From positions 32,001 through 96,000 of the forward strand of contig CAVWLW010000054.1 of the NCBI GenBank assembly GCA_963755715.1: a DNA stretch of 64,000 nt, read 5' to 3'. The stretch's first letter is position 1, and every line of letters starts with the position of its first letter. Of the stretch, positions 6,532 to 20,375 are shown piece by piece. Under the pieces are notes generated by a model. It made no database searches, was not told the DNA's origin, and saw nothing but the letters and a program-made list of their open reading frames with translations. The DNA comes from an uncultured delta proteobacterium. GTDB lineage: Bacteria; Desulfobacterota; Binatia; UBA9968. Position numbers and translations under genes: made by a program.

Positions 6532-6630
6532 TCACCTTTTGTATAGCTGCTTGATAAACCCCGACGATTCCAGCTCCTGAACGAAACTCATATCGACGAA
6601 GCTTTTCAATGGGCCGAGCTCGCGATGAAG
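6532..6630 (-). pseudogene. C-terminal remnant of NitT/TauT-family substrate-binding protein
   Basis: SFVDMSFVQELESSGFIKQLYK resembles the C-termini of the SBPs at 18803 and 34764. Confidence 0.6.
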
Positions 6631-6638
6631 ATGCCGAG

Positions 6639-6845
6639 TTATGGCGTTGGGCGCGCTGACTTCTCTGATTCCCACTTCTCGGCCAGTGCCGCAAGTGCTG
6701 CACCTGATTCGGGCCAGTTGTGCAAGATTGCCGGATCGAAGTCGGCGCCGTTTGGCCATACCAACGTATGAGCTTCGTTGTCCAGTGTGACGCGGTCAAA
6801 AAGGGAGGGCTCTTGTAAGGGACCGTAAAGATCACCCCTCAACAC
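6639..6845 (-). pseudogene. DUF2442-family protein, N-terminally truncated
   Basis: GDLYGPL.EPSLF..V.LD.EAHTLVWPNGADFDP. Confidence 0.7.
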
Positions 6846-6959
6846 AGACTAGCCGACCTGGAAGATTCCAGTCGGACTCGTGAAAACCATTCGGGCCGCC
6901 CTCGGTGTGCGCGATGAAAACGCGGAGACAGTGAAGGACGACGAGGGCCAGCCGGTGCC

Positions 6960-7863
6960 CGATTGAACTCAAACTTCGTTGCCTGCTGCACCGGCAAATC
7001 AGCCGGTTTGGCACCTTTCAAAATTTTGTCCACGTAAACAGCGGCGCGCCGATAGAGGTCATCGTAGTCCGCCCCGTAGGACATGAGGCCGCCCTCATCG
7101 ACATACTGCTTCTGGGGGTAAATAGCCGGCAACCGGTATTTCCGGCAAGCTCGACGATCCGCTTTCTTTCGGCGAAAAAGCAGCGACCGCTGGTCGTCAT
7201 AATACCGCCCACCTGCTTCTGCTTTGCGGTTTGAAAGGCGCTCTCTAAACCTTTGGCGTCGGGTGGAGTGTCGATTCCTCCAATTTCAGCTTCAATGCCA
7301 CAGCCGCAGTCCTGAGCTCTTTCAGTTGGAGGTCTCTTCTATGTGCCTCCCGGCGGCCGCAGAAGTCCAACTAGGGCGAGCTTGGGGACTGCGTCCTTGA
7401 GTATCTCTAGCCTTTTGGTACTTAGCTCGGACGCTAAACCCGCGAGCCCAGTGACATTGCCTCCCGGCCGCGCCAGACTGGCAACCAAACCTGCAGCCAC
7501 GGGGTCCCCAATGCTTACCATCACGATGGGGATGGTAGTAGTCGCTCTCTTCGCCGCTAACGCCGCGGCGTCCCTGAGACCACGATCAGATCAACCTTGA
7601 GACGAACCAGGTCCGCCGCAAGCTCAGGTAGACGCTCATGCTCTTGCTCTGCAAATCGGTACTCGATGGCAATATTCTTTCCCTCAATCCATCCAAGCTT
7701 GCTCAGCTCTTGCAGAAACGCCTTCACGAGGACCGCAATACCAGAAGCAGTGCTAGCATCCAGGAAACCGATGCGGAAGATTTTCCCGGCTGCTGCGCCT
7801 GGTGAAAGAGCAAAGCGCGAAAAGCATGGCGCAAAGATTAAGGACGGCGATTTTTCTCTTCAT
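6960..7863 (-). pseudogene. ABC transporter substrate-binding protein (COG2984-like), multiply frameshifted and 3' truncated
   Basis: ATG at 7863; pieces in several frames ([49 protein letters not shown]); breaks off near 6962. Confidence 0.85.
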
Positions 7864-7891
7864 GTCTTTTGAGGTGCGCAACGTCGAACCA

Positions 7892-8883
7892 TCACTTAAT
7901 CACTTTGTCCGCTCTCGCCAGCACATTCGGCGGAATCGTCAGGCCGATCTGCTTCGCCGCTTTAAGATTGATTAACAGCTCGAACTTCTTTGGCTGTTCG
8001 ACTGGCAGGTCAGCAGGTTTAGCGCCTTTGAGAATTTTGTCCACGTAGACGGCAACTCGCCGGTAGGGTTCAACCTGGTCGGCCCCGTAGGACATCAAAC
8101 CACCGTTGTCGACAAAATCTGCCCGATGATATATCGCCGGCAGTCGATTTTTTGCCGCGAGGTCCACAATCTGTTTTCGATTTGAAACGGCCAACGGGCT
8201 TCCGGCCACAGCAAGAGCGGCACTACCCGTCTTGATACCCTCATTGAACGCAATCTCGTATTGGTTGGCGTGACTTACCTCCATGGAGTGAAGTTGCAGA
8301 CCCAGTTCTCGGGCTGGCAACTGACTTTCTTTCCATGCTTCCGCACCATTTGGATCCCGCGGATCCCACAACACCGCCACGCGGGCGAGCTTGGGAACCG
8401 CTTCCTTGAGCAACTCTAGTCGCTTACCCGATAACACCCCCGAAATCGCGGAGAATCCCGTAATGTTCTCCCCAGGCCGCGCTAGGCTGTCAACCAGCCC
8501 AGCGGCAACAGGGTCAGACACCCCTATAAAAACGATTGGGATCTCTTTGGTAGCGTTCTTGGCGGCTAAAGCAGCAGGCGTTGAGGACATGACGAGCACG
8601 TCAACCTTGAGACGAATTAGCTCACCCACCAACGCCGGGAGCCGGTCGAACTTTTCCTCCGCGGATCGATACTCGATAATTATGTTCTTACCTTCAACAT
8701 AGCCGAGTTCGCGGACTCCTTGCCGGATTAGTTCAAGGCGGGTGCCTGGACCGGAAGCGGAACGGAACCGCTTGAGAGCACCCCAATCTTAGCCAACTTT
8801 GTCTGTTGCTGCGCCTCGGCTATGACCGCAACAGCAAGCAGCATCACTGCAACCAGGATTGATAGCGCCGCAGCTTTCTTCAT
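7892..8883 (-). pseudogene. ABC transporter substrate-binding protein (COG2984-like), one frameshift
   Basis: Signal peptide MKKAAALS..AEAQQ from 8883; frame break at a TTCCG duplication ~8755-8770; intact C-terminus ARADKVIK. Confidence 0.88.
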
Positions 8884-8995
8884 TGCACACCTCGTTCTTG
8901 CGGCTTTTTATCACGGATACGGAAGCTGAGAAAAGTGTTATTTACGGCAGAAGGAAAACCAGATTCATCGAGGGGAAAAAGGCTAATTTCGACGT
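8884..8995 (-). repeat. Conserved ~110-nt SBP leader (copy A)
   Basis: Aligns with 10067-10171, 12848-12965, 18170-18277 and 19917-20017; ends in GAGGTGTGCA-ATG. Confidence 0.75.
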
Positions 8996-9067
8996 AGGAT
9001 TGAACTGAACGACGCTTCAGACAAATCTCATAGGATTTGTCGTGGATGGAGAATTCAATTCAATCCT
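8996..9067. repeat. Structured ~70-bp repeat, copy 1
   Basis: AGGATTGAACTGAACGACGCTTCAG-ACAAATC..GATTTGT-..GATGGAGAATTCAATTCAATCCT; terminal IR plus two inner hairpins. Confidence 0.92.
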
Positions 9068-18377: not shown

Positions 18378-18710
18378 CTACACACGCCAACTCTGGTCGT
18401 CACTTTTCCGTACGAGTTCGTCTCTTTTCTTTTCGCTGATCGTTTCGGATGAAGCCAGAAGGCTAAAAAAAGCTCCAATAACAATCGATATAACAACGAT
18501 GAAGAGCAATGATCGGCTCGTGATCATGCCGCCTAACATTCCTAGACCTGAAATTAGAGCTGCGATGGCACCGTTGATAAATCCGATCACAAATAACTTA
18601 ACGGGTTGGCGCAGCTGTTTGAGTGGTGAGAAGGCAGCGAGTGCGAACGCCGTGATAACGGATGAGAAAAAAATGATCGGTCCGAGTATATCGTTGGGCT
18701 GTTCTGCCAT
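18378..18710 (-). CDS. Small hypothetical membrane protein
   Basis: 110-aa ORF with three hydrophobic segments. Confidence 0.6.
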   Translation of the reverse strand: MAEQPNDILGPIIFFSSVITAFALAAFSPLKQLRQPVKLFVIGFINGAIAALISGLGMLGGMITSRSLLFIVVISIVIGAFFSLLASSETISEKKRDELVRKSDDQSWRV

Positions 18711-18802
18711 ACTATTTCATGCGGTTAACTCTTACGTTTCCCTGCTTGCCTCAACTCATTTTCGCCTCTAACTTTGCTGGCTATATGATTTCGGAAATCC
18801 GC

Positions 18803-19759
18803 TTAACGGTAGAGCTCATCGAAAAAACCCTGCGCTTCAAGCACACGGACATAATGAAGATCCCAGAGCTTGACCGGGTTGCCCGTTTCTTCTAGTTCCG
18901 GATAGACCAGCTGAGCGATGCGGTAAGCGTTGTAAAGCGAGTCGATCTTGGGGCACAGCCGGGGCTCGAGGCTGTTGCTCAGTTTTTGGTAAAAACTTTC
19001 CAGTTCGATGTCATCGCGTATGCCCAGACGATCGGCGACATTGCCGGCGAGGATCTCCATGGTTTTTTCCTTGTCTCGTTTCACCATGGCGACTCCCGTC
19101 GCGATCGCCTTGATCATGCGGATGTAGAGTTCGGGATTATCTTGCACCAACGGAACCAAACTGGTGAGTGTGATCGAGTTGACCATGGGATAACGGGGTA
19201 ACAGTCGGGTGTGGAGTCCGAGGCGCTCGCAAGCTTTCTCCTGGGAGCCGCTGGCAAAGGTCACGTCCGCCTTGCCGTCGAGGAGGAGCTGCTTTTTATC
19301 GCCGCTTTCCACCCGCTTGACGTCCAGTTGATCGGAGGATAGCCCGGCATCGCGGAGATAAAGCTCGTAGGTGCCGCGCACATGGCTAGTGAGATGACCT
19401 TCCTCGTCACAAAAATCCTGTTCGGCCAAAACCCGGTCCTTCAAATCGTTCAAGCCGGCCAGTGGCTTTGTGCTCACGAGCATGTCCTGTGACGTGTTTA
19501 CCGTCTGGGCCATGCAGATCATTGGAACACCGCTGGCGACGCGCCAATGCGGCGTGATGTGGCAACCGAAGATCATGTTGCACTTGCCGTCGAGCAGTTG
19601 ATCCTCGGCGGGGAGAGCGCGATGCTCCAAGTCCATGCGGCTCACCTCAATTCCCAGCCGATCCCAAATGCCGCCGTACTTCATGATCGAGATCATGGCG
19701 AGCTGCGAGTGGTTGGAACGGTAGATCACTTTTGCTTCCAATGTCTTGGGTTGGCTCAT
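18803..19759 (-). CDS. NitT/TauT-type substrate-binding-fold protein
   Basis: LNDLKDR, LLDGKADV, C-terminal DLHYVRVLEAQGFFDELY; AGGAG RBS; no clear signal peptide. Confidence 0.75.
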   Translation of the reverse strand: MSQPKTLEAKVIYRSNHSQLAMISIMKYGGIWDRLGIEVSRMDLEHRALPAEDQLLDGKCNMIFGCHITPHWRVASGVPMICMAQTVNTSQDMLVSTKPLAGLNDLKDRVLAEQDFCDEEGHLTSHVRGTYELYLRDAGLSSDQLDVKRVESGDKKQLLLDGKADVTFASGSQEKACERLGLHTRLLPRYPMVNSITLTSLVPLVQDNPELYIRMIKAIATGVAMVKRDKEKTMEILAGNVADRLGIRDDIELESFYQKLSNSLEPRLCPKIDSLYNAYRIAQLVYPELEETGNPVKLWDLHYVRVLEAQGFFDELYR

Positions 19760-19904
19760 GAGTTGGTTCTCCTTTTTCGAAGTTGACGGTAGGGGTTCGT
19801 TGCGCGCCTATACGGAACACGCCAAAGATATTCGGGTTTTTCAGTCCCTCAAGTCGTCACGTGTTTTAAAGGGAGCCTGAACCGCCAGCGGTGTCTCCCA
19901 GCAG

Positions 19905-20017
19905 AGCTTTCTTCATTGCGCACCTCGTTTCGAGCGTTATTTATCACGCCAATCGAGCTAAAGAAAAGTGTAATTGACGAGAAAAATTTGTCGAACAGAA
20001 GACTCTACGCAGCCCGC
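19905..20017 (-). repeat. SBP leader copy with start stub (ATG 19916, MKKA...) but no SBP gene body
   Basis: Plus-strand GCTTTCTTCATTGCGCACCTCGTT nearly identical to the start region at 8873-8896. Confidence 0.7.
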
Positions 20018-20081
20018 GATTGAATTGAACGACGCTTCAAGTTGATCTCACGACAGCGTTGATGGAGAAAACTGTTCAATC
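20018..20081. repeat. Structured ~70-bp repeat, copy 7
   Basis: GATTGAATTGAACGACGCTTCAA...GATGGAGAAAACTGTTCAATC. Confidence 0.85.
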
Positions 20082-20109
20082 CTACGATTCGCCGCTAAGT
20101 GTTCCTTCG

Positions 20110-20375
20110 TTACTTAATCACTTGATTCGCCCGCTCAAGCACGCGAACTGGAATTGTCAGACCGATTTGCTTTGCCGCCTTGAGGTTAATGATGAATTCA
20201 AACTTCGTTGCCTGCTGCACCGGCAAATCGGCAGGTTTGGCTCCCTTCAAGATCTTGTCCACGTAAATGCTACGTGATCCGATAGCCGTCAATGGCGTCC
20301 GCCCCGTAGGACATGACCCCACCAGCATCTCCAGATACTCTGCCGCCGTACGCCGACGGTAACCGGCTCTTTAAC
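20110..20375 (-). pseudogene. C-terminal fragment of COG2984-like substrate-binding protein
   Basis: [50 protein letters not shown]. Confidence 0.85.

What the first reader, a model, noticed from the sequence alone, without database searches (positions are those of the whole stretch)
6532..20375. Cassette-like array: co-oriented genes delimited by the repeat, mixing orphan SBP paralogs with unrelated cargo
Seen: every recognisable gene over ~14 kb is on the minus strand. Each repeat lies just 3' of a stop codon (3, 3, 13, 25, 28 and 33 nt) or directly against an attC, and that preceding gene varies: SBP (four times), HAD hydrolase, membrane protein, cyclase cassette. No permease or ATPase for these COG2984-type SBPs is in the array. 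This layout resembles an integron array but uses a non-attC site. Inference: an undescribed gene-capture or shuffling platform, or an SBP+leader+repeat unit that multiplies and attracts insertions. Exception: the SBP-SBP junction at 7864-7891 has no repeat.
Basis: partly seen in the sequence, partly recalled or inferred. Interest (0 to 1): 0.85.

Follow-up and report, generated by a model that had tools for sequence, protein, structure and literature searches.

The report
Hairpin repeat punctuating integron gene cassettes
A 70-85 base hairpin-forming repeat, found only in one group of uncultured soil bacteria, sits at the joints between genes in a decaying integron gene-cassette array and marks places where gene units are duplicated, swapped between species and hit by insertions, but it is not an ordinary integron site and how it acts is not yet shown.

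Summary
Window 6.5-20.4 kb holds eight copies of the repeat: five full, one split by a 2.5-kb IS91-type insertion, and two half or mini copies. All are co-oriented with minus-strand genes.

The repeat has two conserved blocks, GGATTGAAYTGAATTCTCC and TGAAGCGTCGTTCAGTTCAATC. Together they form an uninterrupted 12-15 bp stem around a variable core.

It is genus-wide: 16 of 24 other genomes of the genus carry it, up to 51 copies each.

It sits at two kinds of place:
- Directly after PF04392 binding-protein stop codons.
- At a fixed spacing after the GTT of canonical attC sites.

Its second block always precedes a conserved ~150-nt leader plus binding-protein gene.

A near-identical metagenome contig shows the same cyclase cassette inside a textbook attC array. 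The locus is therefore an eroded integron cassette array, not a separate platform.

The repeat fails the attC tests:
- It shows no covariation and no bulged bases.
- It gives no hit with an attC covariance model that finds held-out attCs.

Repeat-bounded units are 93-95% identical between species whose core DNA is 70-80% identical, and they lie in a different order. Homology ends inside the two blocks. The variable core assorts independently of both flanks.

Best reading: a lineage-specific junction element of a binding-protein cassette family that drives duplication and shuffling by recombination between copies. Site-specific recombination is not excluded.

The parts
20007..20090 (-). full repeat copy, after a truncated binding-protein gene fragment
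   Evidence: nhmmer E 3e-19; sequence
18266..18354 (-). full repeat copy, 33 nt after the stop of a 110-aa membrane ORF
   Evidence: nhmmer E 2e-18
17130..17165 (-). 5' half copy (block 1 only) after binding-protein gene 17184-18171
   Evidence: alignment A1
16081..16116 (-). mini hairpin copy (block 1 arm, TTCTCC loop, return arm)
   Evidence: (I6)
15517..15583 (-). 5' part of a repeat cut after ...GCGTCGTT by an insertion
12980..15516 (-). IS91-type element: tyrosine-recombinase gene 14527-15363, and a Zn_Tnp_IS91/Y2_Tnp transposase 13064-14513 that is frame-broken near 13900
   Evidence: Pfam; same junction in C42, C1 and G018; 94% identical copy in G018
12953..12979 (-). 3' part of the split repeat (GTTCAGTTCAATCC), followed by the leader
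11780..11860 (-). full repeat copy, 6 nt after a binding-protein stop; no leader follows it
10341..11651 (-). adenylate/guanylate-cyclase-domain gene, a bona fide integron cassette (its real start is probably the ATG near 11577)
   Evidence: Pfam PF00211; same cassette behind other attCs in metagenome contigs
10249..10346 (-). canonical attC of the cyclase cassette (R'' GCCTAAC, R' GTTAGCC)
   Evidence: fold; attC model R2 80.8 bits
10165..10252 (-). full repeat copy that abuts the attC
   Evidence: nhmmer E 5e-22
8987..9074 (-). full repeat copy, 15 nt after a binding-protein stop
   Evidence: nhmmer E 1e-21
8884..8986 (-). conserved leader between repeat and binding-protein start; other leader copies at 10066-10164, 12857-12952, 18172-18265 and 19916-20006
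   Evidence: leader alignment and HMM
6965..20516 (-). six PF04392 binding-protein genes or fragments, each frame-broken or truncated: 20113-20516, 17184-18171, 11858-12856, 9081-10065, 7892-8883, 6965-7864
   Evidence: tblastn frames; Pfam; indels at three break points in soil contigs
15578..19759 (-). other cargo ORFs: 318 aa (18803-19759), 110-aa membrane protein (18378-18710), TenA/haem-oxygenase-like (16199-16882), 161 aa (15578-16063)

Best explanation
Window 6.5-20.4 kb is an eroded piece of an integron-type gene-cassette array. It lies in a variable genome region of an uncultured soil bacterium whose relatives' records are titled Candidatus Binatia.

The repeat is a lineage-specific junction element, not an attC. 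Two conserved blocks form a 12-15 bp stem around a free-to-vary core. The element starts about 10 nt after the G|TT cassette boundary. Its second block runs straight into a ~150-nt leader and a PF04392 binding-protein gene, so it forms the 5' end of a binding-protein cassette family.

Many near-identical blocks lie in direct orientation. Recombination between copies (homology-driven exchange and gene conversion) therefore duplicates, deletes and reshuffles the units between them, and lets units pass between species. The products are mosaic repeats, half repeats, internally deleted binding-protein genes and foreign cargo between repeats.

Canonical attC cassettes lie immediately upstream of the element. 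An IS91-type element lands at one GTTC in block 2.

Shown: anatomy, distribution, contexts, mosaicism, exchange between species, and non-membership of attC.

Inferred: that homology-driven recombination, rather than a dedicated recombinase, does the shuffling; and that the strong conservation of the blocks reflects a function of the hairpin in single-stranded nucleic acid, either mRNA stability or processing, or a protein binding site.
For: Reality and range.
- nhmmer E down to 5e-22.
- A covariance model finds the repeat in 16 of 24 other genomes of the genus, 1 of 5 in a sister family and 0 of 11 in a third family.
- The exact two-block pattern occurs in only 31 stretches among the species genomes scanned.

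Orientation. 131 of 133 copies share their locus's orientation.

Contexts, for the 101 copies that have a 5' arm.
- 36 follow a binding-protein stop at discrete distances.
- 27 of the other 65 follow a GTTA/GTTG box, 17 of them at exactly one offset against 0.4 expected.
- Folded canonical attCs stand there.
- 11 of 27 attC-model hits abut a repeat.
- 43 of 45 leader copies are directly preceded by block 2.

Integron frame.
- A frame-broken intI with attCs lies on another contig.
- Metagenome contig L094 is 97.6% identical across the cyclase gene. It reads attC, two small ORFs (99 and 101 aa), attC, binding protein, attC, cyclase, attC, repeat, leader, binding protein.

Shuffling.
- Units shared between this genome and G018 are 93-95% identical over 1.0 and 2.75 kb, while syntenic core DNA is 70-80% identical. 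Their order differs.
- Alignment ends fall in block 1 or block 2.
- Of 36 copy pairs whose variable core is >=85% identical, 2 share the upstream flank and 0 share the downstream flank.

Conservation without covariation. 0 of 9 stem pairs carry compensatory changes, and the stem is 84-98% Watson-Crick at core positions.
Against: - The blocks are far better conserved than neutral DNA between species that are 70-80% identical. Passive homology alone does not explain this.
- Most homology ends (about 10 of 15) lie in block 2, which holds GTT. That would also fit a site-specific crossover.
- An IS91-type element flanked by G|TT sits at the same base in four copies.
- The truncation of the binding-protein gene at 6965 coincides with GTTCAATC.
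- No leader without the repeat, and no empty site, was found. Insertion and inheritance therefore cannot be told apart.
- No expression data were available.
- The frame breaks in the binding-protein genes may be assembly errors, so 'eroded' may be overstated.
Confidence: 0.5

Rival explanations
1. The repeat is itself a site-specific recombination site, a non-canonical analogue of attC. An integron integrase or another tyrosine recombinase would use it, crossing over at a GTT in block 2 (GCGTCG|TTCAG|TTCAATC). Units bounded by repeats would then be true mobile cassettes.
For: - The element is a hairpin with conserved ends containing AAY...GTT (ATTGAAY / GTTCAAT) and a core of variable length (6 to ~50 nt), like an attC with a variable terminal structure.
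- It lies right after stop codons and is co-oriented with the genes.
- Most homology ends of shared units lie at block 2, and shared units usually carry the downstream repeat's core with them.
- An element bounded by G|TT on both sides sits at GCGTCG|TT in four copies.
Against: - No extrahelical bases, no unpaired spacer and no compensatory changes. The genus's canonical attCs show 17 of 19 pairs with compensatory changes and two bulged positions.
- An attC model that finds held-out attCs gives no hit on any of about 130 copies.
- The variable core is not linked to the upstream gene, as an attC would be: 2 of 36 pairs.
- Some homology ends lie in block 1.
- Integrase presence does not track copy number. 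G018 has 51 copies and no intI hit, while G006 has two intI and no copy.
- The intI-proximal array of this genome has no repeat.
- The four insertions are also explained by the known GTTC target preference of IS91-family elements (recalled knowledge).
Confidence: 0.2
2. The repeat is a small non-autonomous mobile element (MITE or REPIN-like, with 13-16 bp terminal inverted repeats). It inserts in one orientation at a preferred target next to cassette boundaries and is mobilised in trans.
For: - Terminal inverted repeats, internal deletion variants (mini copies) and subfamilies of the core shared across species.
- Near-identical cores occur in unrelated flanks: 34 of 36 pairs.
- The offset from the attC GTT is fixed, as known for attC-targeting insertion sequences and group IIC introns (abstracts in the listing; further details recalled).
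- Solo copies lie outside arrays.
Against: - No empty site was found. Every full leader carries block 2 (43 of 45; the 2 without it are truncated leaders).
- In copies with identical cores the arms can differ (L032 5302 against 8606), which fits conversion better than transposition.
- No target-site duplication is evident.
- No transposase tracks the copy number. Y1 transposases are present in genomes without the repeat and absent from G017, which has 14 copies. IS91 is absent from G019, which has 29 copies.
- The IS200-like locus shows no similar ends.
Confidence: 0.15
3. The repeat is only a cis-acting RNA hairpin: a 3' stabiliser or processing signal after binding-protein genes, or part of their 5' untranslated region. 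It was copied passively by ordinary tandem duplication of paralogues, and the foreign genes are unrelated insertions.
For: - It lies 6-30 nt after binding-protein stops and runs into a conserved leader.
- Orientation is strictly sense.
- The only common stem polymorphism is C or T opposite G, which keeps pairing on the sense strand only.
- Extragenic palindromes after binding-protein genes that stabilise upstream mRNA are known in enterobacteria (recalled knowledge).
Against: - There is no Rfam family, no T-run terminator and no promoter-like site in the leader.
- It does not explain the fixed spacing to attC sites in 17-22 unrelated cassettes.
- It does not explain the elevated identity of units between species or their changed order.
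- It does not explain the independent assortment of the core.
- More than half of the copies with block 2 have no binding-protein gene downstream: 26 of 98 have one.
Confidence: 0.15

Closest known systems
Integron cassette arrays with species-specific attC repeats (sedentary chromosomal integrons, and attC clusters lacking an integrase)
   Same: - Co-oriented, mostly single-gene units.
- A structured repeat right after stop codons.
- Canonical attC cassettes in the same arrays.
- An integron integrase gene elsewhere in the genome.
- Typical cassette cargo (cupin, SnoaL, antitoxin, cyclase).
   Different: - The repeat is conserved in sequence rather than in structure.
- It lacks bulged bases and an unpaired spacer.
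- It is not found by an attC model.
- Its core is not linked to the upstream gene.
- It starts after, not at, the G|TT boundary.
REP/BIME and REPIN extragenic palindromes
   Same: - Hairpin of 35-85 nt.
- Lineage-specific.
- Tens of copies.
- Often lies after binding-protein genes.
- Sequence subfamilies exist within and between genomes.
   Different: - Confined to cassette-like arrays and strictly co-oriented with genes.
- Fixed spacing to attC.
- No single-copy Y1 transposase that tracks it.
attC-targeting mobile elements (IS1111-attC insertion sequences, group IIC-attC introns) and MITEs
   Same: Orientation-specific position at a fixed distance from an attC core; terminal inverted repeats; deletion variants.
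   Different: - No coding parent element.
- No empty sites.
- Fused to a conserved leader and gene.
- What I know of the named families is from abstracts in the listing and from recall.
Tandem paralogue arrays of orphan binding proteins
   Same: 65 PF04392 matches in the genome, many in arrays and none next to a matching permease.
   Different: - Large PF04392 arrays without the repeat exist in the same genome, for example on contig C34.
- Repeat-bounded intervals often hold unrelated genes.

Membership tests
integron attC site | R''/R' core boxes RYYYAAC ... GTTRRRY that pair | tested here: inconclusive
   The arms read ATTGAAY ... GTTCAAT (or AYTGAAT ... GTTCAGT). Position 4 departs from the consensus, and about a third of copies have AAT instead of AAC. 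The consensus itself is recalled.
integron attC site | L box stem with extrahelical bases and an unpaired central spacer | tested here: not met
   Folds show an uninterrupted 12-15 bp stem. The genus's canonical attCs show two bulged columns.
integron attC site | structure kept through sequence change (covariation) | tested here: not met
   0 of 9 stem pairs carry compensatory changes in 12 copies. In 58 copies the stem is near-invariant. Canonical attCs have 17 of 19 pairs with compensatory changes.
integron attC site | detected by a covariance model of attC sites | tested here: not met
   Model R2, built from 7 attCs of this genus, gave 27 hits in 490 kb. These include held-out attCs and none falls on a repeat copy. 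The published IntegronFinder model was not available.
integron attC site | the site travels with the gene upstream of it | tested here: not met
   Of 36 copy pairs with a near-identical core, 2 share the upstream flank.
integron attC site | recombined by an integron integrase at G|TT | not testable with these tools
   There are only indirect hints: insertions and homology ends at block 2.
integron cassette array (the locus as a whole) | cassettes bounded by attC sites, with boundaries at G|TT | tested here: met
   The cyclase cassette has an attC in the window. In L094 it lies between two attCs in an array with five attC-model hits (at 622, 2146, 2809, 3935 and 5267), and its 5' boundary is G|TTAGGCCGATAG. 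The window itself holds only one canonical attC.
integron cassette array (the locus as a whole) | integron integrase nearby | tested here: not met
   The only intI match lies on contig C45 and is in three frame-broken pieces. None is in the window.
REP/REPIN with a RAYT transposase | a Y1 transposase gene flanked by the repeats or tracking them | tested here: not met
   PF01797 matches occur in 26 of 31 genomes irrespective of repeat count. The IS200-like locus on C33 has no similar ends.
MITE | presence/absence polymorphism with an empty site, and a target duplication | tested here: inconclusive
   No empty site was found among 45 leaders or at one solo copy compared across the genus. No duplication was seen. 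No close strains are held.
described RNA family (Rfam) | match to a curated covariance model | tested here: not met
   0 matches at gathering score over the window. At E<=5 on 8800-10400 there are only chance-level hits, and none lies on the repeat.
IS91 family (the 2.5-kb insertion) | Zn-binding and Y2 HUH transposase domains; insertion next to GTTC without duplication | tested here: met
   PF14319 and PF04986 match. The junctions are ...GCGTC|GTTGGAC... and ...CTATCC|GTTCAG. The target preference is recalled.

The most novel reading that the evidence does not exclude
The hairpin is the recombination site of a second cassette-exchange system that is not attC-based. This system would coexist with, and feed on, a classical integron. 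A recombinase not yet identified (or the integron integrase acting on an unusual substrate) would cross over at the GTT of block 2. Binding-protein units and captured cargo would then excise, move between species and re-insert, with attC cassettes docking at a fixed distance from the site.
Probability: 0.2. Interest if true: 0.8.

Novelty: new variant of a known kind. Interest (0 to 1): 0.55.

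Why it matters
Integron arrays are usually described as genes separated only by attC sites. Here, in a little-studied soil lineage, a second conserved structured element sits at a fixed place beside cassette boundaries. It carries its own leader and gene family. It also marks where units are duplicated, deleted and exchanged between species.

If the element only supplies homology, it shows how a cassette array can keep shuffling after its integrase and attC sites decay. 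If it is a true recombination site, it would be a new kind of gene-capture site.

It also gives a handle on why one binding-protein family has expanded to dozens of orphan copies in these genomes.

Tried and rejected
- **Loose regex scan for attC-like palindromes.** It gave 356 places spread over all contigs and was uninformative. The stricter scans were used instead.
- **Script on pairing beyond the core stem.** My regex captured the wrong offset, so its table is not used. It was replaced.
- **Locus in close relatives.** No species genome of the genus holds the left flank, the region 20.4-32 kb or the cyclase cassette. The repeat loci of G021 share nothing at >=85% identity with this genome.
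- **Public runs.** All 24 listed runs are kept as short contigs, and 4 were laid. Joints between repeats have sides of 20-36 letters and may come from paralogues or other organisms. This gives no verdict on gain or loss of units.
- **Link to Y1 transposases or an IS200-like element.** None was found.
- **Link to intI or IS91 copy number.** None was found. IS91 copies do lie inside repeat arrays.
- **Rfam and promoter/terminator scan.** Nothing lies on the repeat or the leader.
- **Small conserved ORF in the leader.** The ATG is not conserved (read).
- **Empty-site search at a solo copy.** The flanks are not conserved on the far side.
- **Protein atlas.** It only confirmed PF04392.
- **Literature.** Three full-text searches found no description of such an element. 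'Binatia' with 'integron' returned 0 papers. Only listings and abstract starts were seen, no paper was read, and supplements are closed.

Full report
**What is there.**

Between window 6.5 and 20.4 kb every Pfam-supported ORF is on the minus strand. Read 5' to 3' on that strand, the region holds:
- a binding-protein (PF04392) fragment, then a repeat;
- a leader with only the first codons of a binding-protein gene;
- a 318-aa ORF and a 110-aa membrane ORF, then a repeat;
- a leader and binding-protein gene, then a half repeat;
- a TenA/haem-oxygenase-like gene, then a mini repeat;
- a 161-aa ORF;
- a repeat cut in two by a 2.5-kb IS91-type element that carries a tyrosine-recombinase gene;
- a leader and binding-protein gene, then a repeat;
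- a cyclase-domain gene with a canonical attC, then a repeat;
- a leader and binding-protein gene, then a repeat;
- a leader and binding-protein gene;
- one more binding-protein gene joined without a repeat and truncated at 6965.

The 'HAD' label is not supported by Pfam.

All six binding-protein genes are frame-broken or truncated in this assembly. However, contigs from four soil runs of different studies, laid at >=95% likeness, carry one-base indels exactly at the break points 7141, 9148 and 13915. Some breaks may therefore be assembly errors or private to this lineage. Long core genes elsewhere in the window are intact.

**Anatomy of the repeat.**

On the gene strand it reads (GCY)AGGATTGAAYTGAATTCTCC (block 1), a variable core of 6 to about 50 nt, then TGAAGCGTCGTTCAGTTCAATC (block 2).
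- The outer parts of the blocks pair into an uninterrupted 12-15 bp stem.
- The core sometimes forms its own hairpin. In one copy the whole element folds as two tandem hairpins.
- z-scores against shuffles range from -0.7 to -6.3 in 12 copies.
- Mini copies have only the stem and a TTCTCC loop.
- The stem is conserved as sequence. 0 of 9 pairs show compensatory change in 12 copies.
- In 58 copies the core stem positions are 84-98% Watson-Crick. The one exception is a position that is C or T opposite an invariant G.

No Rfam family matches.

**Distribution.**

In this genome the repeat occurs in several clusters on other contigs as well (C61, C35, C42, C65, C11, C59, C9, C52).
- A covariance model finds it in 16 of 24 other genomes of the genus (up to 51 and 29 copies), in 1 of 5 genomes of a sister family and in 0 of 11 of a third family.
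- An exact two-block pattern scanned over one genome per prokaryote species gave only 31 stretches.
- These lie in records titled Candidatus Binatia or uncultured delta proteobacterium, plus a few short soil-MAG contigs with other labels.
- In the fetched loci of three genomes, 131 of 133 copies share the orientation of their locus.

**Contexts.**

Of the 101 copies with a 5' arm:
- 36 follow the stop of a PF04392 gene or its last codons, at discrete distances (8, 17-19 or 26-30 nt to TTGAA).
- Of the other 65, 27 follow a GTTA/GTTG box, 17 of them at exactly 13 nt before TTGAA against 0.4 expected per offset.

These boxes are the R' ends of canonical attC sites (folds).

On the other side, 43 of 45 copies of the ~150-nt leader that precedes these binding-protein genes are directly preceded by block 2. 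The two exceptions are truncated leaders. Yet only 26 of 98 copies with block 2 are followed by a binding-protein start. The rest are followed by other recurring or unique sequences and small genes.

By eye, the short spacer after binding-protein stops (GCGCGGCGATGCCAGG) aligns with the end of an attC followed by the repeat (GCGCGGCGTTAGCGCCAGG). This suggests that attC sites once stood there. It is an inference.

**The locus is part of an integron array.**

The genome has a frame-broken integron integrase followed by canonical cassettes at the end of another contig, and a further attC cluster on C50.

Metagenome contig L094 decides the point:
- Its cyclase gene and everything downstream to the contig end are 97.6% identical to window 11600-10035.
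- It is a textbook array. The attC model finds sites at 622, 2146, 2809, 3935 and 5267.
- Two small ORFs (99 and 101 aa) lie between the attCs at 2146 and 2809. They were not scanned against any family library.
- Then come a PF04392-like binding-protein gene with a short plain 5' end, an attC, the cyclase, an attC, and then repeat, leader and binding protein.
- The cyclase cassette starts there at G|TTAGGCCGATAG.
- In the window the same sequence, from GGCCGATAG on, is preceded by different DNA (binding protein, repeat, about 190 nt).
- More distant versions of the cyclase (85% identical) lie behind yet other attCs and are not followed by the repeat.

So both the cyclase and members of the binding-protein family are integron cassettes in this lineage.

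**The repeat is not an attC.**
- Seven canonical attCs of the genus show 17 of 19 stem pairs with compensatory changes and two bulged columns.
- A model built from them gave 27 hits in 490 kb of arrays. These include attCs it was not trained on.
- Eleven of the hits abut a repeat. Three of those are the same cyclase attC in three records.
- No hit lies on any of the roughly 130 repeat copies searched.

**Evidence for shuffling.**
- Syntenic core DNA of this genome and four relatives is 70-80% identical. The left 32 kb of the window has no syntenic counterpart in them.
- Against that background, two units next to repeats on contig C61 are 95% (2.75 kb) and 93% (0.98 kb) identical to units in G018. 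There they lie in the opposite order with a binding-protein unit between them.
- Within genomes, several units recur at 97-99% in different neighbourhoods. Some pairs in G018 may be duplicate contigs and were left out of the counts.
- Alignment ends fall at the end of block 2 (about six cases), at the start of block 2 (three), at the end of block 1 (three), or elsewhere in the repeat.
- In a linkage test on 55 full copies (1485 pairs), 36 pairs have cores >=85% identical. Only 2 of these share the upstream flank and none shares the downstream flank.

The core therefore assorts independently of both neighbours. That fits exchange in both blocks, conversion between copies, or mobility of the element itself. 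It does not fit an attC-like site that travels with one gene.

**Insertions.**

The IS91-type element sits at ...GCGTCGTT|GGACTAAACC in four places:
- the window;
- contig C42, where a group II intron has entered its end;
- G018, at the same junction;
- contig C1, where its other end abuts GTTCAATTCAATCC.

Y2-transposase matches in G018 and G015 lie inside or next to repeat arrays. This fits the GTTC target preference I recall for the IS91 family. It also leaves G|TT on both sides, as an integron-type insertion would.

**No enzyme tracks the repeat.**
- Integron integrase: G018 (51 copies), G003 and G004 have no hit, while G006 has two and no repeat.
- IS91 is absent from G019 (29 copies) and G017 (14 copies).
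- Y1 transposases occur in 26 of 31 genomes regardless of repeat count.
- Completeness of several genomes is 60-90%, so absences are weak evidence.

**Verdict.**

The finding is real and more than chance. The repeat is best read as a lineage-specific junction element of a binding-protein cassette family inside eroding integron arrays. It promotes duplication, deletion and exchange by recombination between its conserved blocks, and it is a preferred neighbour or target for attC cassettes and an IS91-type element (confidence 0.5).

Three readings remain open:
- a dedicated site-specific mechanism at the GTT of block 2 (0.2);
- a MITE-like element (0.15);
- a purely RNA-level role (0.15).

These are not mutually exclusive.

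Noticed in passing
window 12980-15516; L010 4928-9400; G000 C1 about 172281-173400; L050 about 4619: An IS91-type element with an upstream tyrosine-recombinase gene is inserted at the same base of the repeat in four places. Its ends carry GTTGGAC / GTCCAAC and an 18-nt inverted repeat next to the right end, so the element looks cassette-like (G|TT on both sides).
   Followed up: partly
L010 4928-6877 (G000 contig C42): A group II intron with a 463-aa reverse-transcriptase ORF lies on the strand opposite to the array. It is inserted at the very end of the IS91-type element, just after a small GC hairpin.
   Followed up: no
window about 3822-3930 and 6250-6490: Other short sequences here recur many times in most genomes of the genus at 75-100% identity (query positions 2023-2131 and 4450-4690). 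They are a different family of dispersed repeats flanking the array.
   Followed up: no
window 6958-6972: The last binding-protein gene breaks off at ...AAGTTTGAGTTCAATCGGGC. The break coincides with an 8-nt match to the block 2 core (GTTCAATC), as if it were joined at a GTT.
   Followed up: no
window 4080-5966: A 628-aa lipoxygenase-family gene (PF00305, E 2e-58) lies just outside the array on the plus strand. None of the 30 other genomes of the genus searched gave a DNA match covering the gene.
   Followed up: no
L014 5862-9425 (G000 contig C45 end): The integron integrase gene is split into three frames and points the same way as its cassettes. At least three canonical attC cassettes follow before the contig ends.
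   Followed up: partly
L005 3830-3925 and 5050-5260; window 19880-19915: Several binding-protein genes are reduced to a signal-peptide start fused to the last 20-30 codons, or to the start alone. Internal deletion seems to be a common fate of these units.
   Followed up: no
L029 7197-8112 and L030 7687-8596 (G019): A TenA-like gene preceded by a half repeat and followed by a full repeat occurs twice in G019 at 98% identity. A distant homologue sits in the same arrangement in the window (16199-16882).
   Followed up: partly
window 6449, 11750, 20578: Contigs of two to four independent soil runs agree with each other and differ from the window by one-base indels at these non-coding places. This hints at consensus errors in the assembly.
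   Followed up: no
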